Assembly: GCA_021158725.1 (NCBI GenBank)
Contig: JAGGUB010000044.1
Location: 3,722-67,721, forward strand
DNA: 64,000 nt
Direction: 5' to 3'
Source of the DNA: a candidate division WOR-3 bacterium
Lineage (GTDB): Bacteria > Hydrothermota > UBA3073 > NMUJ01
Made by a program: the position numbers and the translations under genes. Below the pieces are notes generated by a model. The model was given only the letters and a program-made list of their open reading frames with translations, ran no database searches and was not told where the DNA came from. This document shows positions 38,587 through 54,973 of the stretch, piece after piece (positions within the stretch are counted from its first letter, which is position 1; each line of letters opens with the position of its first letter).

Positions 38587-38616
38587 TTGACGTTATTTAT
38601 TTTTGTGCATTTTAAT
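38587..38616 (+). promoter_or_regulatory. Sigma70-type promoter for the prepilin-like gene
   Basis: TTGACG (38587-38592), 18-nt spacer, TTTAAT (38611-38616). The ATG at 38629 is only 12 nt past the -10, so the leader would be very short. The track's TTG start at 38587 is the -35 hexamer itself. Confidence 0.4.
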
Positions 38617-38628
38617 TTCATAGACCAA

Positions 38629-40419: not shown

Positions 40420-41244
40420 TCATTCAGCTCCTGGATAGGCCTCACGAAATAGGGTAAGTGTTGTACCATCATACCCCATGATATTGTGGTCTTCGTCAAA
40501 ATATATCACTAATTTGCCAACCTCTGACAATTCCCCATATGTACGTACTATAATTGTATGTGATAAACTATCTTCGAGCGGCTCATGTAAGCCACGCCCT
40601 TCGTAGCCACCTACAAGTATATCGATACCTCTTACCTGTTCGACCAGCTTCACATCGTTATCAAACCCAAGTGATGACAGTACAATGAGCACATCGACAC
40701 TATCACGTATGTGTGCCACTACACGGCTTACACTCTCTATGGGGTTGTACACTTTAATCTTGGTTGCATACTCCCAAGCTAATGCGGGTGCTAAGTACTG
40801 GGTTACCACACCTATCACACCTATAGTGATACCATCTTTTTTCAAAATCACATATGGTTTGTTGTAACCTTCGATATTCGCTGATATAAATGTAGGGCTA
40901 TCCGGCAAATATGGTACCCATGGTAGGTCATATACTCCAATATTTACAACATCGTAGTTAAGCTCACCGAACATCTTCAACATCATATGTGGTGGTTCAC
41001 CATACCTACCGGGTGCACTGAAGTTACCTGCATCTAAAAGCAACAACGGGTAGCCCTCCCTGTATGCCTTCTGACGTTCTACCGATAGCAGGTATTTCAG
41101 TGACGGTAAGCCACCAAGTTCAGGTGGAAAGTTTGGATTTATCCATGTAGCAGGACGTGGATATGTAACCTCCGCTATATCATTGGTATATAGGATGACA
41201 AGCTTCTCAGTAACAAAAATCAACCCTACTATCACTATTGTCAT
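40420..41244 (-). CDS. Membrane-anchored 5'-nucleotidase/metallophosphatase-fold protein with all metal-ligand motifs degenerate (pseudoenzyme)
   Basis: 274 aa, N-terminal TM MTIVIVGLIFV. Scaffold motifs are retained but the ligands are lost: ILYTNDIAEV (for D-x-H), LLLDAGNF (for G-D), VNIGVYD (for G-N-H-E), VLSSLG (for S-H-x-G), LVGGYEG (for G-G-H-x-H). Confidence 0.65.
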   Translation of the reverse strand: MTIVIVGLIFVTEKLVILYTNDIAEVTYPRPATWINPNFPPELGGLPSLKYLLSVERQKAYREGYPLLLLDAGNFSAPGRYGEPPHMMLKMFGELNYDVVNIGVYDLPWVPYLPDSPTFISANIEGYNKPYVILKKDGITIGVIGVVTQYLAPALAWEYATKIKVYNPIESVSRVVAHIRDSVDVLIVLSSLGFDNDVKLVEQVRGIDILVGGYEGRGLHEPLEDSLSHTIIVRTYGELSEVGKLVIYFDEDHNIMGYDGTTLTLFREAYPGAE

Positions 41245-41798
41245 CTCACTGTAGGAAGCGTTTTGGTCGACACTCTCAGAAGCTGGTCAAAGTACTGTTC
41301 GAACATTGTTGCAACCTCACGTGATACGATCATCACCGTAGCTTCATTATTCCTCTGCAGTGCGTAATACGTCCAGTTATGTGAACCCACAAACACTATC
41401 TTACCATCGATTATGACAACCTTACAATGTGTGGTGACATCGGGCGGATCGAAATACACTTCGGTTATACCGAGTTCATGAAGATGTTTGGCCACCTGCA
41501 CATTTTTACGTGTAACACTGGGGTTCCAATCTGACTGATCGAGTATGAGCTTCACCTCCACACCCTGTCTATTTATATACGCAAGCGCATCATACAGCGA
41601 ATCATTCATCCCACGCGGATATTGTGGGTAATAACCTGCACTAAACATTATCACATGTACAACACTATCTGCATTGTATACCTCCTCGATCAACCGTCTC
41701 ACGTAGTCGCGATTGAATGTAACTTCAACCTCATCTGCAGGTAAGCCAACCGCCACACTCGCTACTATAACAATAAATGCTACAAATATGCGTTTCAT
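41241..41798 (-). CDS. Secreted single-HKD phospholipase-D-superfamily protein (Nuc-like endonuclease candidate)
   Basis: 185 aa, signal MKRIFVAFIVIVASVAVG. HCKVVIIDGKIVFVGSHN is an exact H-x-K-x4-D-x6-G-S-x-N motif. The size and single-motif layout match Nuc-type nucleases rather than two-domain PLDs. Confidence 0.7.
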   Translation of the reverse strand: MKRIFVAFIVIVASVAVGLPADEVEVTFNRDYVRRLIEEVYNADSVVHVIMFSAGYYPQYPRGMNDSLYDALAYINRQGVEVKLILDQSDWNPSVTRKNVQVAKHLHELGITEVYFDPPDVTTHCKVVIIDGKIVFVGSHNWTYYALQRNNEATVMIVSREVATMFEQYFDQLLRVSTKTLPTVR

Positions 41799-42889
41799 GG
41801 TAACTCCTTCTTGATCGTAAAGATAACACTGAACATACTTTCGTCGATTTTGTCAAACCCCTCCACATCCACAAGGTATGCACTGTATTTGCGACACCAG
41901 AAGCTTATCCCAACGTCGATCTCACAAAATGCGCCCCTATAGCCGATACCTGCAGTGTAGATCCCTTTTGATAGACGTTCATCCTTAGCCGCTGATAGCC
42001 ATGCGAAGCCGGCTCGTAACAGAAATGAAGGCATAAGCTCGTGCTCCACACCCATGTGGTATTCCCATTCACGATGTTTGCCTTGATGGGTTAACACCTC
42101 GGCTACAAAATATGCAGGTAAAATATTTGCTGGCCGATATCCGATACCTACTCCATACGTGAATTGAGGATAATCGAACAGTGTATCTTTAAGTGTGGAT
42201 ATCTTCCATATACCGCCGATGGTCCACCTAAAAGAAGGTTTGATACATATACCAAACGTAAAGTTTATACCCTGAAGTTTACCACTTGTCGATGTATCCC
42301 ACGGTTCACTACCTTCATATGAGGGACGCCACATCTTTGCATGTTGCCAATCCCCTTTTAAATAACTACCACCTATCCCCACGTATAAGGTGGGCCATAC
42401 TCGTACACCCAACATTGCTGAATACGATATAACCATACCGGTTGAGGATTCGATCTGCCACCCCCTTATGAGATAGTAGTCATCGTACATCGGGAGCTTA
42501 AACTCATAGTCGAACACATATTTAGGGGATACTTTAAAGTCGAACGACACACCGTGTTTATAGAGATTTATACCTAATGGCATAGGAACGGTATGTAACT
42601 CGTCACGTATCGCACGTGTAGCTTCACCTACATAGTCTTCGAACTCATTGTATACCTTAACCTTACGTTCCTCGGTAATCTGATGAAGTTGTAGGTTGAT
42701 GACAACCGCAGAGATCGAATCATAACACGCGGGGTTGTCTGCATCCGTCACCACTATAGATATGTAGCCTAACCCAACATTCTTGCCATCGAACATAGAT
42801 AATGGATAGCCACCAGTTGCTATCTCATGTAATGTATATCCATACAGAGGGATTACTGCAAAACTGAAGATGTACACAAATTTACTCAT
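41795..42889 (-). CDS. Hypothetical outer-membrane beta-barrel-like protein
   Basis: I moved the start to ATG 42889 (MSKFVYIFSFAVIPLYG) with GGAGG 5 nt upstream, fused to the preceding TAG. Alternating aromatic/Gly beta-strand pattern (YVGIGGSYLKG, FTFGICIKP, YGVGIGYRP, YTAGIGYRG). Confidence 0.55.
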   Translation of the reverse strand: MSKFVYIFSFAVIPLYGYTLHEIATGGYPLSMFDGKNVGLGYISIVVTDADNPACYDSISAVVINLQLHQITEERKVKVYNEFEDYVGEATRAIRDELHTVPMPLGINLYKHGVSFDFKVSPKYVFDYEFKLPMYDDYYLIRGWQIESSTGMVISYSAMLGVRVWPTLYVGIGGSYLKGDWQHAKMWRPSYEGSEPWDTSTSGKLQGINFTFGICIKPSFRWTIGGIWKISTLKDTLFDYPQFTYGVGIGYRPANILPAYFVAEVLTHQGKHREWEYHMGVEHELMPSFLLRAGFAWLSAAKDERLSKGIYTAGIGYRGAFCEIDVGISFWCRKYSAYLVDVEGFDKIDESMFSVIFTIKKELP

Positions 42890-42897
42890 ATAGCCTC

Positions 42898-45195
42898 CTA
42901 CCACCATATTATCAAAAGTAAGTTACCACCAAACTCACGCCTGGTATCGATAAACTCGTAAATTGGTATACCATCCTCTGAATGTGCACCCAACATCCCA
43001 GTATGCGGGAACTCGCTTAATTTATACCTAAATTTTAACCTAAATAATAAGTTATGTGACAGCCTATCTGATAGCACTAAGTAATATTTCCAGCCCCTAC
43101 CCTCAAGAAAGTCTATACCCGTGTCTTCGAATATCCACTGCGATAACCCCTGTGTCTGCCATATCGCATATCCACCCAGTATCGACATATGTGGTGATAA
43201 ATTATACCGATAGGTGAGCGCGAGAAACCCTCCCGTTATTGTGTTGGCTGTCTCATATCTTGGTAACGAAGGAAACGATACCCTCGCATAACGTAATTCA
43301 GCACGTAAGTTGTTGTAGTTGCTTAACCTATATTCGATTGTGAGCGATGTCTCCCATAGATGCGATATTGTAGTGGTAGCCAGCCGTTTGTGTGATTTAG
43401 CCTGCAGCTTTTGCCTCAGATATATACGTAACGGGAAAGCTGGCCGATACTGTAATGTCACCTGTGTACGCCAGTTAGGTAACCCATACGCAAGGTCCTT
43501 CCATACATCTATGTAAAAACGTGATATTATCAACCTATGTGATGGTTGGTATCTGAACTCAAGATATATACCCTCCTCTGCCCTCGGTACAGGATATTCG
43601 GAAATATAGACATAAAGTGGATCTATCAACCGATACGAACGTTGCCATATGCCTTCACCAAACCGCCTACGTTCGGCAAACCCACGTGAGTATGGGTTAT
43701 CATAATCCACATCGTAGTGCCGTAAAACCAAGATCCCATATAGTGTTTCATACTGTAGGTGTAGCTTCATAATGTATGCATGACCGGCATGCTGTTGCTT
43801 TGCGTAGTCAAATTCTAAGCTCATATTGTTCACCACCGTAGAGAGATGTGTACCTACGAAGCTACGATGCTGGCCACGACTTGATAATAGGTAGTTAGGG
43901 TCATCGATCACCTCCTTATCCCAGGGTATATCCAGGTATTTGGGATTCGGGTTGAATGGCCTCGAGTAAAGTAAATCGAGTAGACTAACCCCTACGTATG
44001 TACCTACAGGTAGATTGTATAGACCGCCCATATCTACGGTGAGGTTAACTCCGATCATTCGTTCCTTCACGTTATGACGGAATGCGGGTAGCACCGGGTA
44101 GATATGTATCAGGTGGTTCACCGAACTGTCAGGGTTAAGTATTGCATTCCTTGGTGCATACGACCACAGTATGGTAGGATGTATGCGGTTGAATGTGAGT
44201 TCAGCTGCCACCCCTTGTAGATAGAAATGTTCGTAATACGTGAGGTCACCGAATAACCCCTCCGGACGCGTGTGTAATCTTGCACGTATCTCGTCACTGT
44301 TATCAAGTAATATACCTTGCCCCCATGTTACCCTGTACGTACCGATGTACATTTTACGTAATGGGCCTATCGATCGTAGCTCGATATAACCTTTGTTGAA
44401 TTTCCTAATCCCTAGATATACATGTGGGGTTATACCCATCCGTAACCGCCAGTCCCATCCCCGATATGTACCCTCACGTAGGTAATCTTCCTTCTCACGA
44501 TATAGCCGTGATATGAGGTGCACGATCTCATCTTTGGTCCATCCAGCTGCTATTAGGTCTTCCTCCCTGTATTTAAGATAGGTAGGCCTACCATAAAGGT
44601 CACCCAATATATCGCCCCTTATGTAATAGATAGTACGCCAGCTGATCTTTAGGTAACCTTCTGTCCCATGTAGGGGTTTGTCTTCAAAGGTTACAAAGTT
44701 TCTGAGATTCCTATATCCCCAGTACGATAACCCCGGTATATCGCGGAGTGCACGTTGATACGATATCTTACCATATAGCTGACGATATCTTACAATGCTG
44801 GCAGCATCCACCAAGCTGACACCATCAAACATTGCAATATCCTTAACAGCTGCACGATTTATGTTGAGCGGATGTCCAAGATACCAGAGCCACTCTTCTA
44901 CAGCACCTGCACGTGGCCCTTCCTCACGGGTGAGCCGCTCCTGCAGGTATTCATAATAATCGCTGGTTTCACGTCTATAAGGTGGTGGGGTCAACTTCAC
45001 CAGGTAACGTATCTTGTTTACTGACTCAATAGGTAATATCTTCGTAAGCTCGTAAAAGCTACGAAAGTACCCATGTTTAAGCCTGTATAGGTATATTGCT
45101 TGGATTTCGGGCTCACTCAGAGGTAGTTGCTTAAGCTTATATAAACTATCGGTGTTTAGATCGATAACAATCAGTATGGATAGCAGGATTACCAT
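42898..45195 (-). CDS. Two ComEA-like helix-hairpin-helix domains fused to a ~550-aa beta-barrel-like C-terminal region
   Basis: HhH unit 1 is DLNTDSLYKLKQLPLSEPEIQAIYLYRLKHGYFRSFYELTKILPIESVNKI. Unit 2 is LNINRAAVKDIAMFDGVSLVDAASIVRYRQLYGKISYQRALRDIPGLS. The remainder is amphipathic beta-strand-rich and ends LLLIIWW (aromatic terminus). The start is ATG 45195 (overlaps the upstream stop) or TTG 45213. Confidence 0.6.
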   Translation of the reverse strand: MVILLSILIVIDLNTDSLYKLKQLPLSEPEIQAIYLYRLKHGYFRSFYELTKILPIESVNKIRYLVKLTPPPYRRETSDYYEYLQERLTREEGPRAGAVEEWLWYLGHPLNINRAAVKDIAMFDGVSLVDAASIVRYRQLYGKISYQRALRDIPGLSYWGYRNLRNFVTFEDKPLHGTEGYLKISWRTIYYIRGDILGDLYGRPTYLKYREEDLIAAGWTKDEIVHLISRLYREKEDYLREGTYRGWDWRLRMGITPHVYLGIRKFNKGYIELRSIGPLRKMYIGTYRVTWGQGILLDNSDEIRARLHTRPEGLFGDLTYYEHFYLQGVAAELTFNRIHPTILWSYAPRNAILNPDSSVNHLIHIYPVLPAFRHNVKERMIGVNLTVDMGGLYNLPVGTYVGVSLLDLLYSRPFNPNPKYLDIPWDKEVIDDPNYLLSSRGQHRSFVGTHLSTVVNNMSLEFDYAKQQHAGHAYIMKLHLQYETLYGILVLRHYDVDYDNPYSRGFAERRRFGEGIWQRSYRLIDPLYVYISEYPVPRAEEGIYLEFRYQPSHRLIISRFYIDVWKDLAYGLPNWRTQVTLQYRPAFPLRIYLRQKLQAKSHKRLATTTISHLWETSLTIEYRLSNYNNLRAELRYARVSFPSLPRYETANTITGGFLALTYRYNLSPHMSILGGYAIWQTQGLSQWIFEDTGIDFLEGRGWKYYLVLSDRLSHNLLFRLKFRYKLSEFPHTGMLGAHSEDGIPIYEFIDTRREFGGNLLLIIWW

Positions 45196-46001
45196 CGTAT
45201 GCCGACCGTCCAAGTTATCGGCAGATAAGCATGGTATTTAAATGCGCAATCTAATGTAAGTTGCTTTAATTTGAAGCTCACCCCCCACGTTAGGACAACG
45301 GGTGGTGTCTCCATACCCGTACGAACCGTTAGGTTAGGATGTATCTGGAATTCACCACCTATCCGCATACGGTTGACACCTACATGGGTACGCTCCAACT
45401 CCATCATGGTGACAGCACCTACAAACGGTACGTATGACATACCCACTGTTAAGCTACGTGGTATATAATGACGTGAAAGCTTACCTATACTGGGGTTGTT
45501 CAACGGATGTATTACTGCACCCAAACACCACCTATCATATACGTAACCGATTAACCCCATATCTACACCAATGACATGTGAGCTACCAAACCTCTGCATA
45601 GATAGCGAATAGTAAGAAGTTGATACCCCAAAGTAAAGGTCACCCGCTATCGGTAATCCAATACCAGCAACCACTATACGTTCTTCGTACAGTGATACAT
45701 TATCTCCTACGTTTAACAAATGTACACCTACAGCGACCGTATATTGGTGGACCGATCGTGCCAATATGAAGTTGGCTCTATTCACGATACTGAATAGGTG
45801 TTCATAATTCGCTTCTATACGGGTACCACTTATGAGTGACAGCCCTGCTGGGTTATAAAATAAGGTTGATGGCGCATCCCCTATTGCAACAAATGCATCA
45901 CCACAACCAGCTACACGTGCACTTAAGGAGTACTGGTCAAACATCCCAAATAGCATGCCAGGCAGTATTATCCCTATTGAGATCAAGCTTTGGTGCTTCA
46001 T
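45189..46001 (-). CDS. PorV/PorQ-family (FadL-like) outer-membrane beta-barrel protein, paralog 3
   Basis: 270 aa. SARVAGCGDAFVAIGDAPSTLFYNPAGLS motif. ATGA overlap with the upstream CTD-protein gene. Confidence 0.65.
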   Translation of the reverse strand: MKHQSLISIGIILPGMLFGMFDQYSLSARVAGCGDAFVAIGDAPSTLFYNPAGLSLISGTRIEANYEHLFSIVNRANFILARSVHQYTVAVGVHLLNVGDNVSLYEERIVVAGIGLPIAGDLYFGVSTSYYSLSMQRFGSSHVIGVDMGLIGYVYDRWCLGAVIHPLNNPSIGKLSRHYIPRSLTVGMSYVPFVGAVTMMELERTHVGVNRMRIGGEFQIHPNLTVRTGMETPPVVLTWGVSFKLKQLTLDCAFKYHAYLPITWTVGIRW

Positions 46002-47926
46002 TTCAGTGGCGTACCAACAACTATCGGTTTACAGAATTTTTGGTATTCGCCATGGATCTCAACCTCCACCTCAAGTATATATGTACCGATGGGTACGGAT
46101 TCCTCTAACTCGTTCTTACCATCCCAATCCGTGTATATAGGGGATTTGTATTTACGTTCGACTACCGTTCGGATGAGGTCACCACGTAGATTGAATATCC
46201 TTGCAGTATAAACAGCATCCGATGGTCCATTGATTTTGATAAACAGTATCTCACCCAACTCAGGTGCAAATGGATTGGGAGATATATCAATCGACACATT
46301 GGGTTGTGGTTCACCTATGTATATTTTCTGTATATCTTCTGGATAGCGTAACTTCAACTGATAACCTGAATTGTAAGGGGGGTCACGATCGTATTGTGAG
46401 CCTATCCCCACAATTGTGATGTAATCACCGATCTCCAAGCTACGATAGATTTCGGAGGTATCAATCCCCGTACCTTCGTCTACCCGTACATTGATGATGA
46501 TGTTGCCATTCCATACCTCGAAATTGCCCGCCCCCAAACCCGGTGTAAACTTCGTATGTAGTTTAGCTTGCGGTATACAAAGTAGTTTACCTTCAAATTG
46601 TTCAGTTATTGGATACGATAGCTTTAACGTCTCAGGTATCACCGTAGCGTTTGTATCAGTACGTAATAAAATGAAACATTCATCTCCCACATATGTGAGC
46701 TCGGTCATCCCATTGTATTCCTGAACTTTACCCCTTACGATGATCTCGTCACCCATCTGTGGATTATAGTCGAACCCATAAATGGCCACCCCTGTGGTGG
46801 TATCTTGGATGAAGAATTGGCCACCCCCCAATGGGGGTGAGGTTATAACACCTCTCACAGTTACGAGTTGACCCAATAACTGTGAATCATAACCAGAAGT
46901 GTCAGGTTGCTGTACTTCACTGATAGGTATTATAGGTAACGAATCGATTACATTGATCACGGGTATGGTTGGCACAGTAACTAGCATCCCTCCAGGTGGT
47001 GCAGTCTTCACTTCGAATTGGTGCTCACCAACCTCATATGGTTCCATATCGTGAAGATATACACGGAGTGAATCCATCACGGTTAGGCTGTCAAGGTATA
47101 GGTGTGATGGGGTGACCTCACCCAACACAGGTTGCATCGGGTAGATTGTATATTCCAAAGAATGCCATGTCCAACCTTCAGGTATTGTTATTTCGAGCTT
47201 CTCAATAGTGTCAGAGGTTACGATGTCAAACCTTAACGTTAATCGCTCGTTTTTGAACACCACGTGTGGGTTGAGTCTCACCATACCGGGGCCCACCACG
47301 GCAGGGGTGAAATCAGCAAGCGATCTGGGTTCAATCTGATAACTCTCATAGTACTGTGTAAGTGGTGAAACAATGCTTATATAGCCGTCAGGGATCGTAG
47401 CACCTACCATCGAATCGTTGTACCTGCTTATCCATACCGGTAACTGGTTACCTTCGTTATCTTCAACATGGTATGTGGTGTTACCCTGAAACGTACCGGA
47501 TTCTATGAATCTCACGCTATCAATACGTACGAGCATACCCTCATAGTCTTCACCATTACTGTGTATCGCAGGTATGGTGAGTTTGTGAGGTGATGGCAGG
47601 CTATGATTACGTGCTATTATGTTTATCGTAAATAGTTCGTTGCTTGCCCATAGTTCGGTGAGATTGGCGAACTCCTTTACCAACCCCGTGATTACAATGC
47701 TATCACCTACGTGTATGTCGGGTGTATTTCTACCACCCCTGTAGACGTATATACCGGAACGTAATTCACCTGACATATCTTGTAAGTAGAAATTGTTACC
47801 TGTAAGGCCCGTCACTATGCCTGAGGTTGTAACTGTATCACCTACGTAGGGGGAAGTATCACCCGCACCCTGTAGCTCGCTAATCGAGTGATAAGGATAA
47901 AGAATGAAGGCTATTAATATCAACAT
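45998..47926 (-). CDS. Surface protein with two OB-fold-like modules (as at the N-terminus of ExeM/NucH-type extracellular nucleases) and a T9SS-type CTD, with no catalytic domain
   Basis: 642 aa. Module A (aa ~14-205) begins ISELQGAGDTSPYVGDTVTTSGIVTG..NFYLQD...GIYVY...VGDSIVITGLVKEFANLTEL. Module B (aa ~333-535) begins ISEVQQ...LLGQLVTVRGVITS...FFIQDTTTGVAIYGF...MGDEIIVRGKVQEYNGMTEL. CTD is aa ~545-642 (SPNPF...ARIFNLRGDLIRTV...WDGKNE...IGTYILEV). Confidence 0.65.
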   Translation of the reverse strand: MLILIAFILYPYHSISELQGAGDTSPYVGDTVTTSGIVTGLTGNNFYLQDMSGELRSGIYVYRGGRNTPDIHVGDSIVITGLVKEFANLTELWASNELFTINIIARNHSLPSPHKLTIPAIHSNGEDYEGMLVRIDSVRFIESGTFQGNTTYHVEDNEGNQLPVWISRYNDSMVGATIPDGYISIVSPLTQYYESYQIEPRSLADFTPAVVGPGMVRLNPHVVFKNERLTLRFDIVTSDTIEKLEITIPEGWTWHSLEYTIYPMQPVLGEVTPSHLYLDSLTVMDSLRVYLHDMEPYEVGEHQFEVKTAPPGGMLVTVPTIPVINVIDSLPIIPISEVQQPDTSGYDSQLLGQLVTVRGVITSPPLGGGQFFIQDTTTGVAIYGFDYNPQMGDEIIVRGKVQEYNGMTELTYVGDECFILLRTDTNATVIPETLKLSYPITEQFEGKLLCIPQAKLHTKFTPGLGAGNFEVWNGNIIINVRVDEGTGIDTSEIYRSLEIGDYITIVGIGSQYDRDPPYNSGYQLKLRYPEDIQKIYIGEPQPNVSIDISPNPFAPELGEILFIKINGPSDAVYTARIFNLRGDLIRTVVERKYKSPIYTDWDGKNELEESVPIGTYILEVEVEIHGEYQKFCKPIVVGTPLK

Positions 47927-47994
47927 CTACTAAAAATATTTGGGTCTGCAAAATTACAACCTATGGAGGGGTGGATCTCGTGCCACATCTGATG

Positions 47995-48327
47995 TTAACG
48001 TGTAAGTAGCAACACATATGCGACTGTTACACCCAATATATCAGCTACGATATCCTTGTAACTCATATAGGTGTGACGTACTTTCCAATCATACAGCTCT
48101 TTCAGCACACCCAACGATATCGTAACGCCTATCGCTAAGTTACGTGCAGGTTCATAACTCCAACCATTTTGACAATATGTTACATGGAATAGTATCGTGG
48201 ATATGCTTAGGGAATAACTAAAATGATGTAACTTATCCACACTGAACCACTTATCTTCAACCTTATGTGTACTATCAGGTGGTGCCATCAAAAGTATACC
48301 TGTCAGGATGATAGCCATTCGCCCCAC
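47995..48327 (-). CDS. Small membrane protein (VanZ/YfiM-DUF2279-like, tentative)
   Basis: 110 aa with 3 hydrophobic segments. DKLHHFSYS and SYKDIVADILGV resemble VanZ-like motifs. Weak assignment. Confidence 0.45.
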   Translation of the reverse strand: MGRMAIILTGILLMAPPDSTHKVEDKWFSVDKLHHFSYSLSISTILFHVTYCQNGWSYEPARNLAIGVTISLGVLKELYDWKVRHTYMSYKDIVADILGVTVAYVLLLTR

Positions 48328-50476: not shown

Positions 50477-51128
50477 TTAATACCCCCTTACTTAATTGAT
50501 AGCAGCGATCTGCTATTTTCATCATCCTATTTTTGTGTGTAACTATCACCGCAGCCATCTTTCTATCTTTAATTACTCGATAGATCAAATTATGCAATAG
50601 GTCACTCGACTTCTCGTCAAGGTTACCTGATGGTTCATCCGCTAATAGTATTGATGGTAGGTTTATCAGTGCACGTGCAACTGCAACCCGTTGACGTTCG
50701 CCACCCGATAATTCTGCTGGATAATGGGACGCCTTACTCTGTAATCCCACAAGCTCCAGTAGCTCCATCCCGAAGTCGATGTTAGGCTTTCTACCCCTAA
50801 TTATGGAAGGTAGTAGCACGTTCTCGACTACGGTTAACTCGGGTATCAATTGATGGAACTGAAACACAAACCCTATCTTTTCGTTACGTAAACGGGCAAG
50901 CTCACTATCGTCCAACGTGGATGTATCATGGCCATCGATCCATACTTTGCCAGTATCGGGTTTGTCGAGTGTTCCCAGTATGTTGAGCAATGTGGTCTTA
51001 CCCGAACCTGATGGCCCTAACACGACCACGATTTCGTTTGCATGTACCTCTAAGTTGACACCCCTAAGTACAGTTAACCGGCGCTTATCTTCTGGGTAGC
51101 TCTTCCAGATATTTTCTGCTTTGAGCAT
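50454..51128 (-). CDS. ABC transporter ATP-binding protein (LolD/MacB/FtsE-like)
   Basis: GPSGSGKTT Walker A, LSGGERQRVAVARAL signature, ILLADEPSGNLD Walker B, VIVTH. No permease gene is adjacent. The start overlaps the C25 stop (TAATG). Confidence 0.85.
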   Translation of the reverse strand: MLKAENIWKSYPEDKRRLTVLRGVNLEVHANEIVVVLGPSGSGKTTLLNILGTLDKPDTGKVWIDGHDTSTLDDSELARLRNEKIGFVFQFHQLIPELTVVENVLLPSIIRGRKPNIDFGMELLELVGLQSKASHYPAELSGGERQRVAVARALINLPSILLADEPSGNLDEKSSDLLHNLIYRVIKDRKMAAVIVTHKNRMMKIADRCYQLSKGVLNEVRCLR

Positions 51129-54100
51129 TAGCGGATGACGAGAAATTTATCGAGCTTACTGGTGGTTAGACGTTGACCAGGCTCTTCCCTTATTGCAACA
51201 ACTTTGTAGAAGTAGATACCGCTACCGATTTTGTCGCCAATAAAGTCACATGTATTCCATTCAATCTCATTGTAGCCGGCGGATAGGTCGAACGGACCCA
51301 ACACCTGTATCACCCTACCCGTGATGGTATAGATACGTATCCATACCGTGCTTTCTTTGGTCAGATAGAAATAGAATGTAACTTTATCACCACGTACAGG
51401 GTTGGGATAAACCCGCAATTCTGTAATATCAAGCGGTTGTTCCCACATTACAGTTACGTGAAAGGAATCTACCCGCACATTACATATGTTATCGGCAGCT
51501 GAGAAGTATAAGGTAAAGTCTGACAGTGCAGCTGGTACATCCACCTTGTACCTAAACCTACCACGTGTCTGGCTACCTAAGTCATACGTGAAGTAATCAC
51601 TTAGATATATAGGGTCGGAAAATCGTGGATCATCGTAACTCATACGTATCGCATAGGGGCCCGTCCTATCGAATATATTGATACCACTTGAATCCTCTAT
51701 CACACCATAGAGGGTAAAAGATGGCGGTATCTCCATACCAGACCTTAGTTGTTTGCCATTAACATAGAGTTTGATGGTTGGTGGCACAGTATCGTTGATC
51801 ACATGCGTATCTTGTATCACTATACCTGTTATACCTATGGTTGCCTCGCCCCCGGTACCGTCCCACCATATAAGGCTTATCTTACCATTATCGCCCGCCA
51901 TGGGTGGTTGTAATAGTGGCCATGCGGGTGTGACAAACCGTACGCTGAACTTACCACCTACCACTGGTGCTATGCCTTCGAAGATAATCTCTTTATCCAC
52001 CCTACCAGGGTACGGGAAATACTGGTTGTCATATCCAGTAAATGGTGGAGCCCCTCTCATCGTATAGGTGATTGTGCCACCATCCGGCAACTTATGTGTA
52101 TGCATGTATGTAGATGATAACACAGTGATATAGACCATACCATTGGGTAAGCCATCACCTTCGATCAGCGCTTCAGCTCCACCATACAACGTATCAGGTA
52201 CGTGTAGACACCATGTACTTATATCGACATTGTTCAATCTTATTCTTATCAAGGGCTCACCAAACCCCTGATAGTTCTCGTAGCTACCACCTGGACATAA
52301 TTTAGCCATAAGGAATGCATCACCTAATCGATTTACACTATCGGAAAATATCGATCTGAGCAACCTCACCCCCACGTTTTGGTTGTAAGTCGCTGATGCG
52401 GCACGAGTTGATGCCAACACCCCTATGGCACCACCATGGGGCCACTTCTCGAGGTAATCACCAAGCCCATCCTTAGCTAAACGGTCGAAACACCCTACCC
52501 CACATGCACCGAAGTAAAATATTGGTAACCTGTAGTTATTTTCAAGCCTATAGATATCGTCAGGGTTAACAAATACGCGTTCATGCGCTATGGTCTCTAT
52601 GCTGCCATGGCCCATCCACATGGCCAGAAACATACCCTTGTGTAGATAACGTAGTATATCTTCTGTGGCACCGGGTTTATTACCAGGTCGGTTGGCGGGT
52701 GTCCAGTTTGGATCCGTAGCTTGTGTTACACCTTGGTAATTCATCAAGTATACTTTGTATATGTCGTAACCTGTGGGTATCAATGGTGTGAATGAATTTT
52801 CAACCTGACTTGTATGTTGTGGTTCACAGATGGATTGTCCATACTCGTCATCTGCTATAAGTAGTACACGATGACGCCACCCACCATAGGAGTGTTCGTA
52901 GTTGATAACCTTTTCTGTTAGCCAGTGAGCTTCTTCTTCGTTTTTTACGGTTGACCGCGTTATGACAACATCTGGGATATCGTCCTCATCGTAGTTAATG
53001 CACGCAAAATAATCGTCATAGCATTTGTTGCCTTGAGGTGGGTACCCGAATATCCCGATGAGATAACCAGTCTCATATGGAGGGATACGGTTGCGATCCA
53101 CTTCCTCTTTATATCCGTATGTACCTGCACCAAACAGATACACGTAACATAATCCCCAGTTATTGTATGCGTAACGGATGAACCTCCTTATTGCATCTGG
53201 GTGTGGGTAGCCGAACGAGAAATTGTCGTAGATTTCGTCGATTGGTACCACTTTCGTTTTTATACCGTGTGATGTACGCCATTCAGCTATTCGATTCGCG
53301 TAGGGTATGAACTCACTTACGGTGATGATCGCGTAATCTACATCTTCGTCCGTATAGAGCGAATATGGGTTGGAGCGTTCGATTGCATCCACGGAGTAAG
53401 GGTTGGCTGTCACCATGTAGACGCCAGGTGAGGCATGAAATTTGTAAATACTACCCTCAAACGTACCACCTACCACTCGTACAGGTGTGTAGCTATCGGT
53501 GATGTTGAAAACATAAGGGTATGTATCAAGTCCACTGATGTGGATATCGGTAGCCTCGTTTGTTTCGAATTTTATCCCATGGTTATGGGATTGAAACTTA
53601 CAGTCTGCAGTCACTTCGAAGTAATCGAAATATAACCTATCTTCGAGCGTATCTTTGGGTGCCTTCCACTGTAGGATTGTGAATTTGTTCTCACCGGTTT
53701 TTAGATTGGTCACCGGTACTTCCAACACCCATGGTGTGGAGGTGCTACCACCTTTTATTGTATCAACGCTAACTACGTGATCGTTTAGTAGTAGCTTTAC
53801 CCTATGTATCTGAGCGCTTGGATTCTCACCGGTGAGGTCGGTCCAATATCGATAGAATACTACCTTGAGGTAGCCACATGAGTCTGCCAATTCTGGCAAA
53901 TTAAATGTATAGGACCAGCGGTTTTCAACCTCTATGGGGGAGCGAACAAGTTCTACCCATATCCAACGTAATCCACCACGTGCGGGACAGAGGTGATCCT
54001 CCTCCCAATGAAACGTATATGTGAATCTGTCCGGTGGTGTTTCACCTGTGGGGGGTGCCACCATGCTGTCTCTTCTACCGTCGGCACCACCCCAGGTCAG

Positions 54101-54973
54101 CCAATACGTTATGTAATCAGAGTATGGATTAAGATAGGTGGTGGGAAATTTATCCCATCCATGTGGCCCCATTGCATAGAATATGATCTCAGAGGTCTCG
54201 TCAAACGTTATACCGCTTTTCACGTATATGGGTATCTCTACCAGTGTGTCACTGAATGATAACCTCAACCCAACCGGTGGCGCATATATTTTGATCGTAC
54301 GTGGATCGATAAAATCGGGTTCAATACCTGCATTTATGAGATCCTGATATGTGATCCTATATATACCTTCGTGCGATATCCTTAGCTTGTACCAATTAGC
54401 TGTGGCCTTCTCGGGTATGACCCGTTTACGGGTTATACGCCAGGATCGTGCTGTTTTGTAATTGAGCAACAACGCACGATAGAGGGGTTCCATTTTATCG
54501 ACTTTATAATTACCTGGTTGACCTCCAACGAAGGTCACCTTTACTCTCATCATCCTGTGTATACGCAGGGTTTGGGTTGCGGGATTATACTGTACGAAGT
54601 TTAGCTTGATAAAGGCGATATGTTGATCCCTAAATATACCTTGCTTGGTGAGCTCAACAGGTTCTGATGGATAGTACTGGTTGGATGTTAAAGTATTATA
54701 TGGCTCACCATATATTGGAGGTACGGGTTTGATGTAGTGTTTGAACTGTCGGCTTTCTGTGTCCAATAGTTTCACATCAATTTGTGCACCTGGAGGTATA
54801 CCAAGCACCACATAATCGTATGGCACCATAGGTAGGCCTGGCTCGCTGGGATAATAGTAGGGTGCACATTCGATGTTATCTATTGTAATTTCCGGTCGAT
54901 AGATGAACTCTATCCCCTGGGGACCACTTTTGACCACCTCAATCCGCACAATAAGCAATAATGCTATCAACAT
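51128..54973 (-). CDS. C25-family cysteine peptidase (gingipain/PorU-like) with T9SS-type CTD
   Basis: 1281 aa. N-terminal propeptide-like region (...FVQYNPATQTLRIHRMMRVKVTF). Core DYAIITVSEFIPYANRIAEWRTSHGIK...YVYLFGAG. Catalytic His in WMGHGS and Cys in FYFGACGVGCFD. CTD LRVYPNPVRGDKVTFYFYL...IRIYTITGRVIQVL...GSGIYFYKV. Confidence 0.8.
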   Translation of the reverse strand: MLIALLLIVRIEVVKSGPQGIEFIYRPEITIDNIECAPYYYPSEPGLPMVPYDYVVLGIPPGAQIDVKLLDTESRQFKHYIKPVPPIYGEPYNTLTSNQYYPSEPVELTKQGIFRDQHIAFIKLNFVQYNPATQTLRIHRMMRVKVTFVGGQPGNYKVDKMEPLYRALLLNYKTARSWRITRKRVIPEKATANWYKLRISHEGIYRITYQDLINAGIEPDFIDPRTIKIYAPPVGLRLSFSDTLVEIPIYVKSGITFDETSEIIFYAMGPHGWDKFPTTYLNPYSDYITYWLTWGGADGRRDSMVAPPTGETPPDRFTYTFHWEEDHLCPARGGLRWIWVELVRSPIEVENRWSYTFNLPELADSCGYLKVVFYRYWTDLTGENPSAQIHRVKLLLNDHVVSVDTIKGGSTSTPWVLEVPVTNLKTGENKFTILQWKAPKDTLEDRLYFDYFEVTADCKFQSHNHGIKFETNEATDIHISGLDTYPYVFNITDSYTPVRVVGGTFEGSIYKFHASPGVYMVTANPYSVDAIERSNPYSLYTDEDVDYAIITVSEFIPYANRIAEWRTSHGIKTKVVPIDEIYDNFSFGYPHPDAIRRFIRYAYNNWGLCYVYLFGAGTYGYKEEVDRNRIPPYETGYLIGIFGYPPQGNKCYDDYFACINYDEDDIPDVVITRSTVKNEEEAHWLTEKVINYEHSYGGWRHRVLLIADDEYGQSICEPQHTSQVENSFTPLIPTGYDIYKVYLMNYQGVTQATDPNWTPANRPGNKPGATEDILRYLHKGMFLAMWMGHGSIETIAHERVFVNPDDIYRLENNYRLPIFYFGACGVGCFDRLAKDGLGDYLEKWPHGGAIGVLASTRAASATYNQNVGVRLLRSIFSDSVNRLGDAFLMAKLCPGGSYENYQGFGEPLIRIRLNNVDISTWCLHVPDTLYGGAEALIEGDGLPNGMVYITVLSSTYMHTHKLPDGGTITYTMRGAPPFTGYDNQYFPYPGRVDKEIIFEGIAPVVGGKFSVRFVTPAWPLLQPPMAGDNGKISLIWWDGTGGEATIGITGIVIQDTHVINDTVPPTIKLYVNGKQLRSGMEIPPSFTLYGVIEDSSGINIFDRTGPYAIRMSYDDPRFSDPIYLSDYFTYDLGSQTRGRFRYKVDVPAALSDFTLYFSAADNICNVRVDSFHVTVMWEQPLDITELRVYPNPVRGDKVTFYFYLTKESTVWIRIYTITGRVIQVLGPFDLSAGYNEIEWNTCDFIGDKIGSGIYFYKVVAIREEPGQRLTTSKLDKFLVIR

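What the first reader, a model, noticed from the sequence alone, without database searches (positions are those of the whole stretch)
40420..47926. Candidate undescribed outer-membrane extracellular-DNA capture/processing system: six translationally coupled genes whose recognisable domains all relate to nucleic acids
In minus-strand order the six genes are as follows.
- (1) A 642-aa CTD-sorted protein with two OB-fold-like modules of the type that precede the catalytic domain in ExeM/NucH-type extracellular nucleases, but with no catalytic domain.
- (2) A PorV/FadL-like barrel.
- (3) A ~770-aa protein with two ComEA-like helix-hairpin-helix DNA-binding domains and a ~550-aa beta-barrel-like region ending in WW.
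- (4) A second predicted barrel.
- (5) A 185-aa secreted protein with an exact single HKD motif, as in the periplasmic Nuc endonuclease.
- (6) A TM-anchored 5'-nucleotidase-fold protein with all metal ligands replaced.
The junctions are ATGA (46001/45998), a 7-nt overlap (45195/45189), TAGGAGG-N5-ATG (42898/42889), ATGA (41798/41795) and ATGA (41244/41241). A 68-nt gap upstream (47927-47994) could hold the operon's own promoter. The domain set (OB folds + nuclease + 5'-nucleotidase fold, surface-anchored) parallels the sortase-anchored multidomain nuclease YhcR of Bacillus subtilis. Here it is split over separate proteins and adapted to a diderm envelope with barrels and a T9SS-type anchor. 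I infer that DNA is bound at the surface, passed to or through HhH-bearing barrel(s), and cut in the periplasm, for nucleotide scavenging, competence-like uptake or eDNA matrix anchoring.
Basis: partly seen in the sequence, partly recalled or inferred. Interest (0 to 1): 0.8.

Follow-up and report, generated by a model that had tools for sequence, protein, structure and literature searches.

The report
Outer-membrane DNA-scavenging gene cassette, FCB bacteria
Six tightly packed genes in an uncultured WOR-3-like bacterium form a cassette, conserved across at least ten related phyla, that most likely binds DNA at the cell surface, passes it through a previously undescribed outer-membrane barrel fused to DNA-binding domains, and breaks it down in the periplasm; no part has been tested experimentally.

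Summary
Six translationally coupled minus-strand genes lie at 40420-47926, and nearly every domain call holds.
- p1: two DUF5689/ExeM-type OB modules plus a T9SS sorting tail, with no catalytic domain.
- p2: a PorV/PorQ-like barrel.
- p3: two ComEA-type HhH domains plus a predicted 24-strand barrel (AF2 pLDDT 80) that matches no Pfam family and no specific solved structure.
- p4: a BamG/FadL-like barrel.
- p5: a secreted single-HKD, Nuc/NucT-like protein.
- p6: the N-terminal half of a 5'-nucleotidase, with six of seven metal ligands lost but dN/dS 0.11.

Synteny is strong. In 80+ loci from WOR-3, TA06, Edwardsbacteria, Latescibacterota, Gemmatimonadota, Krumholzibacteriota, Zixibacteria, Eisenbacteria and Cloacimonadota (plus MAGs labelled Fibrobacteraceae), the order p1-like, p2, p3, p4, 5'-nucleotidase recurs. 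Counts are p2 69/70, p4 68/79 and 5'-NT 55/66. The six-gene form is a sub-clade variant in which an HKD nuclease plus a dead, truncated 5'-NT replaces the active enzyme.

The closest known systems are the Bacteroides ddbABCDEF DNA-utilisation locus and the Riemerella transformation genes. Those combine a DUF5689 surface binder, a TonB-dependent barrel and a periplasmic HhH protein. Here the logic is the same, but the barrel is a different, TonB-independent class, the HhH is fused to it, and anchoring is by T9SS.

Verdict: a new variant of a known kind, inferred entirely in silico.

The parts
45998..47926 (-). p1, 642 aa: a secreted surface protein with two OB/HIN-like (DUF5689/ExeM-type) modules, a middle Ig-like domain and a T9SS-type C-terminal sorting domain. 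It has no catalytic domain.
   Evidence: AF2 pLDDT 84.8. Foldseek matches PorU, PorZ and p204 HINab-dsDNA. Homologs fuse the module to three nuclease folds.
47312..47848 (-). p1 OB module 1 (aa ~27-205).
   Evidence: DUF5689 best stretch 27-205. ExeM_NucH model positions 2-112. N-terminus of the 9sf8 EEP nuclease.
46322..46924 (-). p1 OB module 2 (aa ~335-535).
   Evidence: Second DUF5689/ExeM stretch and a tRNA_anti-codon OB hit at 387-411. This is the most conserved block in alignment A2.
46001..46249 (-). p1 C-terminal sorting domain (aa ~560-642), T9SS type.
   Evidence: FlgD_ig, CHU_C and PorU C-terminus hits. Homologs carry Por_Secre_tail at the same position and share a VVGTPL[KDE] end.
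45189..46001 (-). p2, 270 aa: a small FadL-family outer-membrane barrel, PorV/PorQ-like, ending in ...GIRW.
   Evidence: NCBIfam PorV_fam 8e-10. The family profile matches PorV 6h3i at 3e-7. Present upstream of p3 in 69/70 loci.
42898..45195 (-). p3, 765 aa (771 aa if the TTG at 45213 is the start): tandem ComEA-type HhH domains fused to a large outer-membrane barrel ending in WW. This is the signature protein of the cassette.
45001..45168 (-). p3 HhH module 1 (aa ~10-65).
   Evidence: HHH_3/comEA hits. Helices 18-62 in the AF2 model.
44689..44871 (-). p3 HhH module 2 (aa ~109-169).
   Evidence: HHH_3 best stretch. The family profile matches ComEA structures 8dss/8dfk.
42901..44661 (-). p3 barrel region (aa ~179-765): 24 predicted strands, a helical insert at 196-242 and a conserved YDNPYSRGF loop around aa 497-506.
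   Evidence: AF2 DSSP. Foldseek finds only generic OM barrels with TM <= 0.32. No Pfam hit in 18 members. Arg is 24% of conserved positions against 8.6% overall.
41795..42889 (-). p4, 364 aa: a FadL-family barrel, BamG/TodX/PorV-like, and a paralog of p2.
   Evidence: The family profile matches BamG chains 9hjm_F/9hiv_F at 4e-18, plus TodX and FadL. 14/21 members hit NCBIfam BamG and 16/21 hit PorV_fam. hhalign against the p2 family gives probability 99%. Present downstream of p3 in 68/79 loci.
41241..41798 (-). p5, 185 aa: a secreted single-HKD PLD-superfamily protein, Nuc/NucT-like, and a putative periplasmic endonuclease.
   Evidence: PLDc_2 8e-23. NucT/DrmC hits. The family profile matches Zucchini, NucT and Nuc at about 1e-10 each. 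Invariant H124, K126, D131, G138, S139 and N141. Found only in the sub-clade.
41406..41429 (-). p5 HKD catalytic motif HCKVVIID (aa 124-131).
   Evidence: Read directly from the sequence.
40420..41244 (-). p6, 274 aa: the N-terminal (metallophosphoesterase) half of a UshA-type 5'-nucleotidase. Six of seven metal ligands are replaced and the C-terminal substrate domain is absent. It is a conserved pseudoenzyme.
   Evidence: dN/dS 0.11 against L007. Always co-occurs with p5.
51128..54973 (-). Context gene: a PorU-like T9SS sortase (Peptidase_C25 plus propeptide plus sorting tail). It shows that the organism has T9SS machinery able to handle p1.

Best explanation
This is a dedicated outer-membrane cassette for acquiring extracellular nucleic acid, used mainly to scavenge nucleosides and phosphate.

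**Proposed steps**
1. p1 is exported by the type IX secretion system and displayed on the surface. Its two OB/HIN-like modules bind DNA non-specifically. The domains are shown; the binding is inferred.
2. p3, a roughly 24-strand barrel flanked in the membrane by its two FadL-family paralogs p2 and p4, forms the conduit. PorV docking on SprA and BamG docking on BamA are the precedents. The conserved Arg-rich interior suits an anionic polymer. All of this is inferred.
3. Both barrel termini lie on the same side of the membrane, so the N-terminal tandem ComEA-type HhH domains sit in the periplasm. There they capture the incoming strand and bias its movement inward, as free ComEA does in competent bacteria. 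This is inferred.
4. The DNA is then processed in the periplasm. In most lineages the enzyme is an active UshA-type 5'-nucleotidase. In this window's sub-clade it is a Nuc/NucT-like HKD endonuclease (p5), accompanied by a catalytically dead half-nucleotidase (p6) that is under purifying selection and presumably has a non-catalytic role.
For: **Domains linked to nucleic acids**
- Every recognisable domain is nucleic-acid related.
- p1's module is the DUF5689 fold of DdbD, the surface DNA-binding partner in a genetically proven DNA-utilisation locus.
- p1's model matches HIN-dsDNA.
- The same module recurs in other secreted proteins fused to three unrelated nuclease folds.

**The p3 barrel**
- p3 is confidently modelled as two HhH domains plus a 24-strand barrel.
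- Arg is enriched about threefold among conserved barrel positions.

**Synteny**
- The order p1-like, p2, p3, p4, 5'-NT is conserved across about ten FCB phyla.
- Unbiased clustering recovers the same five families.
- Full-length 5'-NTs in the cassette keep all metal ligands and carry SPI signal peptides. This favours catabolism.

**Precedents and context**
- Riemerella transformation requires the same three elements: a DUF5689 surface protein, an OM barrel and a periplasmic HhH protein.
- A PorU-like T9SS sortase lies 3 kb upstream.
- All four genes that could be compared are under purifying selection.
Against: - There is no experiment on any member, and no cultured host was found.
- Most cassettes encode no nuclease at all, so it is unclear who generates the mononucleotides that a 5'-NT needs.
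- The side of the membrane on which the HhH domains sit is inferred only from the even strand count and general OMP topology.
- The barrel may be plugged by the helical insert (aa 196-242) or the conserved loop (aa 495-539).
- FadL-family barrels classically carry hydrophobic molecules.
- p1 is missing in 12/54 loci, whereas p2 is almost always present. p2 is therefore tied to p3 rather than to p1.
- Some homologs pair the p1 module with CBM_4_9.
- A sugar-type ABC importer sits upstream in 16 loci.
- p5's top-scoring PDB sequence match is a lipid-acting Serratia PLD.
- purD in the window shows that at least one de novo purine-synthesis gene is present, so there is no sign the organism depends on purine salvage.
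Confidence: 0.5

Rival explanations
1. The cassette is a natural-transformation uptake machine. The same parts move intact DNA across the outer membrane for delivery to ComEC and recombination, as a pilus- and secretin-independent competence route. The nucleotidase or nuclease only trims or recycles the non-transforming strand.
For: - The nearest genetically characterised analogue, the Riemerella pair RA0C_RS04915/RS04920 (OM barrel and DUF5689 surface protein) plus the periplasmic HhH protein RS02645, is essential for transformation.
- ComEA-type HhH domains are hallmark competence parts.
- NucT, a relative of p5, is linked to transformation in Helicobacter (from my own knowledge).
- A pilin-like gene lies nearby at 38587-39150.
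Against: - An active 5'-nucleotidase is the most conserved enzyme of the cassette (49/66 loci). Its product is nucleosides, which points to catabolism.
- No comEC, dprA or comF appears among the recurrent neighbours.
- The Bacteroides homolog system is catabolic, not transforming.
Confidence: 0.2
2. The cassette is a surface eDNA-anchoring or adhesion module with no import. p1 tethers the cell to the eDNA matrix. The three barrels serve only as its T9SS-type attachment platform, as PorQ holds PorZ and BamG holds surface lipoproteins. The HhH domains have a structural or regulatory role.
For: - p1 resembles PorZ and PorU in overall build.
- p2 and p4 belong to the PorV/PorQ/BamG group, whose known members are docking platforms rather than channels.
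- A second pair of sorting-tail protein plus PorV-like barrel follows the cassette in several phyla.
Against: - This reading does not explain a conserved periplasmic 5'-nucleotidase or nuclease in the operon.
- It does not explain why a 24-strand barrel should carry periplasmic DNA-binding domains.
- p1 is dispensable in 12/54 loci while p2-p3-p4 persist.
Confidence: 0.13
3. The cassette has a function unrelated to DNA, such as uptake of another phosphorylated or hydrophobic substrate or an envelope-biogenesis role. On this reading the HhH and OB domains have been re-used for protein-protein or glycan contacts, and the 5'-NT acts on nucleotide-sugars or other phosphoesters.
For: - UshA-type enzymes also hydrolyse UDP-sugars and similar substrates (names of the NCBIfam models).
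- FadL-family barrels transport hydrophobics.
- The OB module occurs with CBM_4_9 in some proteins.
- A sugar-type SBP_bac_1 ABC importer lies upstream in 16 loci.
- p4-family members approach the BamG model, best 3e-24.
Against: - Four independent nucleic-acid-associated domain types (OB/DUF5689, HhH, HKD nuclease-like, 5'-NT) converge in one operon.
- The p1 module is fused repeatedly to bona fide nuclease domains.
- There are no POTRA/Omp85 or Plug/TonB domains in p3.
Confidence: 0.12
4. The cassette is an anti-phage defence locus (DISARM-like), because p5 matches DrmC models.
For: p5 hits DrmC profiles, with a best E-value of 7e-13.
Against: - No other cassette protein hits any PADLOC model.
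- There is no DrmA, DrmB or methyltransferase.
- All six proteins carry N-terminal hydrophobic, signal-peptide-like segments (by eye, no predictor was run).
- p5 is absent from 60/66 cassettes.
Confidence: 0.01

Closest known systems
Bacteroides thetaiotaomicron ddbABCDEF DNA-utilisation locus and the Riemerella anatipestifer transformation genes RA0C_RS04915/RS04920 plus RS02645 (bioRxiv 10.1101/2025.03.18.642099; PMC8459023)
   Same: - A surface protein with the DUF5689 OB/HIN-like DNA-binding fold sits next to an outer-membrane barrel.
- A periplasmic HhH DNA-binding element is part of the system.
- Secreted or periplasmic nucleic-acid hydrolases are encoded in the same locus.
- The overall logic is to bind at the surface, pass the outer membrane and process in the periplasm.
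   Different: - There the barrel is a TonB-dependent SusC-like transporter. Here it is an unrelated 24-strand barrel with no Plug, TonB box or CarboxypepD_reg domain.
- Here the HhH domains are fused to the barrel instead of being a separate protein.
- Here the DUF5689 protein is a T9SS sorting-tail protein rather than an SPII lipoprotein.
- Two FadL-family accessory barrels are added.
- In most lineages the locus enzyme is a 5'-nucleotidase, not a nuclease.
ExeM/NucH extracellular nucleases (and B. subtilis YhcR)
   Same: - p1 shares their N-terminal OB module (NCBIfam NF033681, positions 2-112, matched twice).
- Relatives of p1 also carry LTD domains, as ExeM does.
- YhcR combines OB, nuclease and 5'-NT functions on the cell surface.
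   Different: - p1 and all nine p1-like cassette proteins examined lack the Exo_endo_phos catalytic domain.
- The functions are split over separate proteins in a diderm envelope.
ComEA (periplasmic or membrane-bound competence DNA receptor)
   Same: The HHH_3 domains of p3 match ComEA structures 8dss, 8dfk and 2duy. A non-specific dsDNA-binding, ratchet-like role is proposed.
   Different: ComEA is a small free or membrane-anchored protein that works with the PilQ secretin and type IV pilus. Here two HhH domains are covalently attached to a roughly 590-aa outer-membrane barrel.
PorV/PorQ (T9SS) and BamG (Bacteroidota BAM), which are FadL-family 14-strand accessory barrels
   Same: - p2 and p4 are FadL-family barrels whose best matches are PorV and BamG.
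- Both precedents dock on a larger barrel (SprA, BamA) and hold surface-exposed proteins.
   Different: - Scores are far below the NCBIfam cut-offs, so p2 and p4 are paralogs, not orthologs.
- The partner barrel is p3, not SprA or BamA.
Nuc (pKM101), NucT (H. pylori) and Zucchini: single-HKD PLD-superfamily nucleases
   Same: - p5 has one HxKx4D plus GSxN motif, a mature size of about 160 aa and a signal peptide.
- The family profile aligns over nearly the full length of NucT.
   Different: - Sequence identity is low and the NucT equivalog cut-offs are not reached.
- Substrate is untested, and a lipid-acting two-HKD Serratia PLD scores similarly.
Vibrio cholerae and Shewanella eDNA-as-phosphate pathway: secreted Dns/Xds or ExeM/ExeS nucleases plus periplasmic UshA (PMC4714964)
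   Same: A periplasmic UshA-type 5'-nucleotidase is the terminal step that releases phosphate and nucleosides from DNA-derived nucleotides.
   Different: In those organisms the components are scattered in the genome and nucleotides cross the outer membrane by general porins. Here a dedicated barrel set is encoded in the operon.

Membership tests
Ddb/Riemerella-type DNA-utilisation or transformation locus (DdbCD) | Surface protein with a DUF5689 domain | tested here: met
   PF18942 at 4.1e-14, 53.4 bits against a cut-off of 28.6, in two stretches. Also found in p1-like proteins of other phyla.
Ddb/Riemerella-type DNA-utilisation or transformation locus (DdbCD) | Adjacent TonB-dependent (SusC/CarboxypepD_reg-type) outer-membrane transporter | tested here: not met
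   No cassette protein hits TonB_dep_Rec, Plug or CarboxypepD_reg. Foldseek similarity of p3 to TBDTs is generic, with TM about 0.3.
Ddb/Riemerella-type DNA-utilisation or transformation locus (DdbCD) | The DUF5689 protein is an SPII surface lipoprotein | tested here: not met
   The p1 N-terminus MLILIAFILYPYHS has no lipobox Cys. It carries a T9SS-type C-terminal domain instead.
Ddb/Riemerella-type DNA-utilisation or transformation locus (DdbCD) | Secreted nucleases encoded in the locus | tested here: inconclusive
   The window has p5, which is HKD and nuclease-like. 60/66 related cassettes have no nuclease, only a 5'-NT.
ExeM/NucH extracellular endonuclease | N-terminal OB (and LTD) accessory modules | tested here: met
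   NF033681 positions 2-112 matched twice at 5.5e-17. LTD is present in p1-like relatives.
ExeM/NucH extracellular endonuclease | Endonuclease/exonuclease/phosphatase catalytic domain | tested here: not met
   There is no PF03372 hit in p1 or in nine p1-like cassette proteins. The score of 61.8 bits is far below the cut-off of 300.
ComEA | HHH_3 helix-hairpin-helix DNA-binding domain | tested here: met
   PF12836 at 7e-11 in two stretches. All 18 family members match, best 1.9e-21. ComEA structures match at 4.7e-10.
ComEA | Small stand-alone periplasmic or inner-membrane-anchored protein | tested here: not met
   The HhH domains are fused to a roughly 590-aa beta-barrel. TIGR01259 scores 26 bits against a cut-off of 152.
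PorV/PorQ family (T9SS) | Sequence membership in NF033709/NF033710/NF033711 | tested here: not met
   p2 scores 38.7 bits against a cut-off of 90, and p4 scores 19.5 bits. They are homologous to the family but below its threshold. The p2 profile matches PorV 6h3i at 3e-7.
PorV/PorQ family (T9SS) | Binds a T9SS C-terminal-domain cargo at the surface | not testable with these tools
   Adjacency to the sorting-tail protein p1 is suggestive. However, p2 persists in loci that lack p1.
BamG (Bacteroidota BAM subunit) | Equivalog-level match to NF053685 and association with BamA | tested here: not met
   The window's p4 scores 15 bits against a cut-off of 250. The best family member reaches 3.3e-24. 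The operon partner is p3, which has no POTRA or Omp85 domain.
Nuc/NucT single-HKD nuclease | Single HxKx4D motif with GSxN, about 150-185 aa, and a signal peptide | tested here: met
   H124, K126, D131, G138, S139 and N141 are invariant in six homologs. The N-terminus MKRIFVAFIVIVASVAVG is signal-like.
Nuc/NucT single-HKD nuclease | Equivalog-level sequence match | tested here: not met
   The NucT models score 28-38 bits against cut-offs of 211-351.
Nuc/NucT single-HKD nuclease | Hydrolyses DNA rather than phospholipid | not testable with these tools
   The profile is equidistant from Zucchini, NucT and Nuc (about 1e-10) and from a Serratia lipid PLD (1.6e-12 summed over two stretches). Support comes from context only.
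UshA-type 5'-nucleotidase | Metallophosphoesterase metal-ligand motifs (DxH, GD, GNH[DE], H, GHxH) | tested here: not met
   p6 has NDIAE, AGN, GVYD, S and GGYEG, so only the first Asp is kept. Cassette 5'-NTs in other lineages keep all the motifs.
UshA-type 5'-nucleotidase | C-terminal 5_nucleotid_C substrate-binding domain | tested here: not met
   p6 is 274 aa and ends at the convergent ahcY gene. There is no PF02872 hit.
DISARM defence system | DrmC together with DrmA, DrmB and a methyltransferase | tested here: not met
   Only p5 hits PADLOC (DrmC). The other five proteins have no hits.

The most novel reading that the evidence does not exclude
p3 defines a new class of outer-membrane nucleic-acid translocon. 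It is a roughly 24-strand, TonB- and pilus-independent barrel with a built-in periplasmic ComEA-like ratchet, and it works in a three-barrel complex with two FadL-family paralogs. The system is conserved across at least ten FCB-group phyla, which would otherwise have no known route for DNA to cross the outer membrane.
Probability: 0.35. Interest if true: 0.85.

Novelty: new variant of a known kind. Interest (0 to 1): 0.7.

Why it matters
How DNA crosses the outer membrane is understood mainly for the type IV pilus and secretin route. A TonB-dependent route in Bacteroidota has only recently been added. Extracellular DNA is a major phosphorus, nitrogen and carbon pool in sediments and soils, where WOR-3, Krumholzibacteriota, Latescibacterota, Gemmatimonadota and their relatives live.

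A conserved, operon-encoded barrel with fused DNA-binding domains gives a concrete and testable candidate for a third route. It also provides:
- a genomic marker, the HhH-barrel plus its two FadL-like flanks, for predicting DNA foraging in uncultured lineages;
- a natural example of enzyme replacement, in which an active 5'-nucleotidase is swapped for an HKD nuclease plus a maintained pseudo-nucleotidase.

Tried and rejected
- **Promoter and terminator scan of 40000-48600.** It found fewer promoter-like sites than shuffled sequence, so it says nothing about an operon promoter in the 68-nt gap.
- **Defence reading.** Only p5 matches PADLOC (DrmC-like), so this reading was rejected.
- **Relatives of the p3 barrel.** None was identified. 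The PDB profile search hits only the HhH part. The Pfam scan of all 18 members gives no barrel family. Foldseek gives only generic barrels with TM <= 0.32.
- **Literature searches for an HhH-fused barrel or for WOR-3 DNA uptake.** No description was found.
- **Search for a cultured host.** Only MAG-derived names were returned.
- **p6 as a decaying pseudogene.** Rejected, because dN/dS is 0.11 and the short form is conserved in at least five distinct genomes.
- **p1 as a carbohydrate-binding protein.** Rejected on fold and fusion evidence, although a few homologs pair the module with CBM_4_9.
- **p4 as the organism's BamG ortholog.** Rejected because scores are far below the cut-off and the operon partner is not BamA.
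- **Technical failures.** One Pfam call exceeded the residue limit, and one paper search used a disallowed term.

Full report
**Observation**

- p1: 45998-47926, 642 aa.
- p2: 45189-46001, 270 aa.
- p3: 42898-45195, 765 aa, or 771 aa from a TTG at 45213.
- p4: 41795-42889, 364 aa.
- p5: 41241-41798, 185 aa.
- p6: 40420-41244, 274 aa.

The junctions are as described. There are ATGA overlaps at p1/p2, p4/p5 and p5/p6. There is a 7-nt overlap at p2/p3. A TAGGAGG precedes the p4 ATG with a 4-nt spacer, not 5. The public gene calls on the source contig (ENA k141_24266, 144.9 kb) give the same protein lengths for the four that could be seen.

The 68-nt gap upstream of p1 exists, but a consensus promoter scan found fewer sites than in shuffled sequence. 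The cassette ends a long same-strand run: PorU-like sortase, LolD-like ATPase, McsA, McsB, CoaX, DUF2279.

**What each protein is**

*p1*
- It matches Pfam DUF5689 above threshold (4e-14) and, twice, the N-terminal OB part of the NCBIfam ExeM/NucH model (5.5e-17).
- Its C-terminus has weak FlgD_ig, CHU_C and PorU-tail matches, and it has no catalytic domain.
- Its AF2 model (38-sequence alignment, pLDDT 84.8) is all-beta.
- The best PDB matches are PorU, PorZ and the p204 HINab-dsDNA complex at 3e-7. No carbohydrate-binding module ranks near the top.
- The ~200-aa module recurs in other secreted proteins fused to Exo_endo_phos (annotated ExeM/NucH), to double PLDc_2 with a Por_Secre_tail, to Endonuclease_1 with a Por_Secre_tail, and to Metallophos. 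A few homologs instead carry CBM_4_9.

*p3*
- It has two HHH_3 domains (7e-11).
- The 18-member family profile matches the tandem HhH of human EEPD1 (2.6e-18) and ComEA structures (4.7e-10), and nothing else.
- AF2 gives pLDDT 80.3 and pTM 0.76. The model shows HhH modules at about 10-65 and 109-169, a strand, a helical insert at 196-242, then beta-strands to the C-terminal WW. I count 24 strands of at least 6 residues.
- Foldseek returns only generic large OM barrels (FimD usher, AlgE, OprC/TBDTs, SlpA, FadL) with TM <= 0.32.
- None of the 18 members hits any Pfam barrel family.
- Arg makes up 9 of 38 conserved barrel positions (24%) against 8.6% overall.

*p2 and p4*
- They are paralogs (hhalign probability 99.2%) of the FadL superfamily.
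- The p2 family profile best matches PorV 6h3i at 3e-7.
- The p4 family best matches the BamG chains of the Bacteroides and Porphyromonas BAM structures 9hjm/9hiv at 4e-18, then TodX, TbuX, BamG 9n2d and FadL.
- 14/21 p4 members hit NCBIfam BamG and 16/21 hit PorV_fam, all below the cut-offs.
- According to PMC12578637, BamG is a 14-strand FadL homolog that packs against the back of BamA and serves as a platform for surface lipoproteins. That paper describes PorV as another FadL homolog, proposed to bind and shuttle substrates in the T9SS.

*p5*
- It is a PLDc_2 protein (8e-23) with an invariant HxKx4D...GSxN motif and a signal peptide.
- Its six-member family profile scores Zucchini 2.6e-10, NucT 6.5e-10 (residues 25-172 against 16-159), Nuc 7e-10, and a two-HKD Serratia phospholipase 1.6e-12 summed over two stretches.

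*p6*
- It aligns to the N-terminal metallophosphoesterase domain of 5'-nucleotidases (3ivd at 2e-12; NCBIfam UshA-like at 9e-17).
- Six of seven metal ligands are replaced and the C-terminal domain is absent.

**Conservation**

*Breadth*
- The word-indexed search found only 18 p3 homologs, labelled WOR-3, Hydrothermia or simply 'bacterium'.
- An exhaustive profile search found 206 50%-identity representatives at E <= 1e-30.
- A scan of one genome per species found 191 genomes.
- The 80 best are labelled WOR-3, TA06, Edwardsbacteria, UBP2, Latescibacterota, Gemmatimonadota, Krumholzibacteriota, Fibrobacteraceae, Zixibacteria, Eisenbacteria and Cloacimonadota. A few MAGs carry Alphaproteobacteria or Desulfuromonadaceae labels that may be binning or labelling errors.
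- No cultured organism appears among the source names.

*Gene order*, using iterated HMMs of the six window proteins on all ORFs of 86 loci:
- p2 lies directly upstream of p3 in 69/70 loci with enough flank.
- p4 lies directly downstream in 68/79.
- A 5'-nucleotidase follows in 55/66 (49 full-length, 6 short).
- A p1-like sorting-tail protein lies upstream in 42/54.
- All five are present in 34/50.
- An unbiased all-against-all clustering gives the same five families as the top recurrent same-strand neighbours.

*The p1-like proteins in other phyla* carry DUF5689/OB, LTD, Big_5 and FlgD_ig/Por_Secre_tail domains. None of the nine examined has a nuclease domain.

*The 5'-nucleotidases*
- The full-length enzymes keep every metal-ligand motif and have SPI-type signal peptides.
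- PLD plus short p6 occurs only in the window, its 96%-identical relative L007, and L022, L031, L039/L042 and L041. In all of these the motifs are degenerate.
- L010 is an intermediate: full-length but degenerate.

*Selection.* Between the window and L007, dN/dS is 0.058 for p3, 0.145 for p4, 0.127 for p5 and 0.112 for p6. p6 is therefore a maintained pseudoenzyme, not a decaying gene.

**Comparison with what is known**

DUF5689 appears in two papers.
- In Riemerella anatipestifer, transposon hits in a DUF5689 'choice-of-anchor J' surface protein, the adjacent carboxypeptidase-regulatory-domain OM protein and a periplasmic HhH protein abolish natural transformation (PMC8459023).
- In Bacteroides thetaiotaomicron, the six-gene ddbABCDEF locus is required for depletion of exogenous DNA and for production of uracil and xanthine. 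DdbD (DUF5689) is modelled as the surface substrate-binding partner of the TonB-dependent transporter DdbC, and it resembles the p202 HIN DNA-binding domain (bioRxiv 10.1101/2025.03.18.642099).

The present cassette has the same three functional elements: a DUF5689-type surface binder, an OM barrel and a periplasmic-type HhH. It builds them differently.
- The barrel is not a TonB-dependent transporter.
- The HhH is fused to the barrel.
- The surface binder is a T9SS sorting-tail protein rather than a lipoprotein.
- Two FadL-family barrels flank the main one.

In Vibrio cholerae, eDNA serves as a phosphate source through secreted nucleases and periplasmic phosphatases, including UshA according to my own recollection (PMC4714964; only the title and start of the abstract were seen). 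That fits the conserved 5'-NT here.

**Mechanism I commit to (confidence 0.5)**

The cassette captures eDNA at the surface, passes it across the outer membrane and degrades it in the periplasm, mainly as a nutrient.
- *Shown:* the domain identities, the predicted folds, operon coupling, synteny across phyla, the active versus dead state of the 5'-NT motifs, and purifying selection.
- *Inferred:* DNA binding by p1 and by the HhH domains; the periplasmic location of the HhH (from the even strand count and the usual OMP topology); passage through the p3 lumen; a p2-p3-p4 complex (by analogy with PorV-SprA and BamG-BamA, and from the near-obligate adjacency); and nuclease activity of p5.

Two points remain unresolved.
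- p2 accompanies p3 even where p1 is absent, so I regard p2-p3-p4 as the core and p1 as an accessory surface binder.
- Most cassettes encode no nuclease. Either polymeric DNA is imported and cut by enzymes encoded elsewhere, or the 5'-NT acts on nucleotides produced outside the cell.

**Rivals**
- Transformation machinery (0.2). This is favoured by the Riemerella precedent. It is disfavoured by the conserved active 5'-NT and by the absence of comEC or dprA among recurrent neighbours.
- Surface eDNA anchoring without import (0.13).
- A function unrelated to DNA (0.12).
- Defence (0.01), rejected.

**Verdict**

Three corrections apply.
- The conserved unit is a five-gene cassette with an active 5'-NT, and the six-gene form is a sub-clade variant.
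- p6 is probably secreted, not TM-anchored.
- A related concept has been published since 2021.

I rate it a new variant of a known kind, with interest 0.7. The HhH-fused barrel is uncharacterised, broadly conserved in environmentally important uncultured phyla, and makes a TonB- and pilus-independent route for DNA across the outer membrane directly testable.

Noticed in passing
window 51128-54973 (-), continuing through 47995-51128: A PorU-like T9SS sortase (Peptidase_C25, propeptide and sorting tail; 1281 aa) heads a same-strand, overlapping run of genes. The run continues with a LolD-like ABC ATPase, McsA (UVR motif), a McsB-type protein arginine kinase, CoaX and a DUF2279 lipoprotein, and leads into the cassette. 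McsA and McsB are best known from Firmicutes, so finding them in a diderm FCB-type genome is unusual.
   Followed up: partly
window 38587-39150 (+): A 187-aa protein with an N-terminal methylation (type IV pilin-like) motif lies just beyond ahcY, next to the cassette. It could matter for the competence-versus-scavenging question.
   Followed up: no
window 34843-36552 and 36590-38494 (-): Two tandem paralogous DUF3857 proteins. The second also has a transglutaminase-like core. Their function is unknown.
   Followed up: no
L010:7693-9195 (WOR-3 UBA3079): A full-length (500 aa) cassette 5'-nucleotidase with partly degenerate metal-ligand motifs (NDIQG, GQYD, S, GYSR). It looks like an evolutionary intermediate between the active enzyme and the truncated dead p6.
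   Followed up: partly
L020:15179-17409, and likewise L011, L024, L026, L027, L029, L038, L040, L043: In Edwardsbacteria, UBP2 and TA06-type loci the 5'-NT is followed by a second pair: a ~450-aa protein with a weak CHU_C-type sorting tail, then another PorV-like barrel. This suggests a recurring unit of 'sorting-tail protein plus its own FadL-family barrel'.
   Followed up: partly
L009:2487-5754 and 15 other loci; L001:13039-14682 and 16 other loci: Two lineage-specific neighbours recur. A family-1 solute-binding-protein ABC importer (SBP_bac_1 plus two permeases) lies upstream of p1 in 16 loci. A 547-aa DHH/DHHA1 (RecJ/NrnA-like) protein lies directly after the 5'-NT in 17 loci.
   Followed up: partly
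proteins P0175, P0188-P0190, P0201, P0202, P0213 (homologs of p1): Proteins of about 720-1050 aa, some from Bacteroidota MAGs, combine the p1-type OB module, two PLDc_2 domains and a Por_Secre_tail. They appear to be an uncharacterised class of T9SS-secreted PLD-type nucleases, and they support a nuclease role for PLDc_2 in this context.
   Followed up: partly
window p1, p3, p4 and p6 N-termini; also L022 and L031: Signal peptides in this lineage are unusually short (about 11-17 aa) and often lack a charged n-region, for example MLILIAFILYPYHS and MTIVIVGLIFV. Start-codon calls such as ATG 45195 versus TTG 45213 for p3 are therefore uncertain.
   Followed up: partly
loci L001-L086, antisense to p3, p4 and the 5'-NT: Long 'conserved' antisense ORFs (for example 274 aa and 364 aa median) cluster across 40+ loci. 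They are shadow ORFs of the conserved genes, not genes in their own right.
   Followed up: yes
L039, L050, L058 record titles: Some MAGs carrying the cassette are labelled Desulfuromonadaceae or Alphaproteobacteria. L039 is near-identical in gene content to the WOR-3-labelled L042, which suggests binning or taxonomic-label errors in the public records.
   Followed up: no
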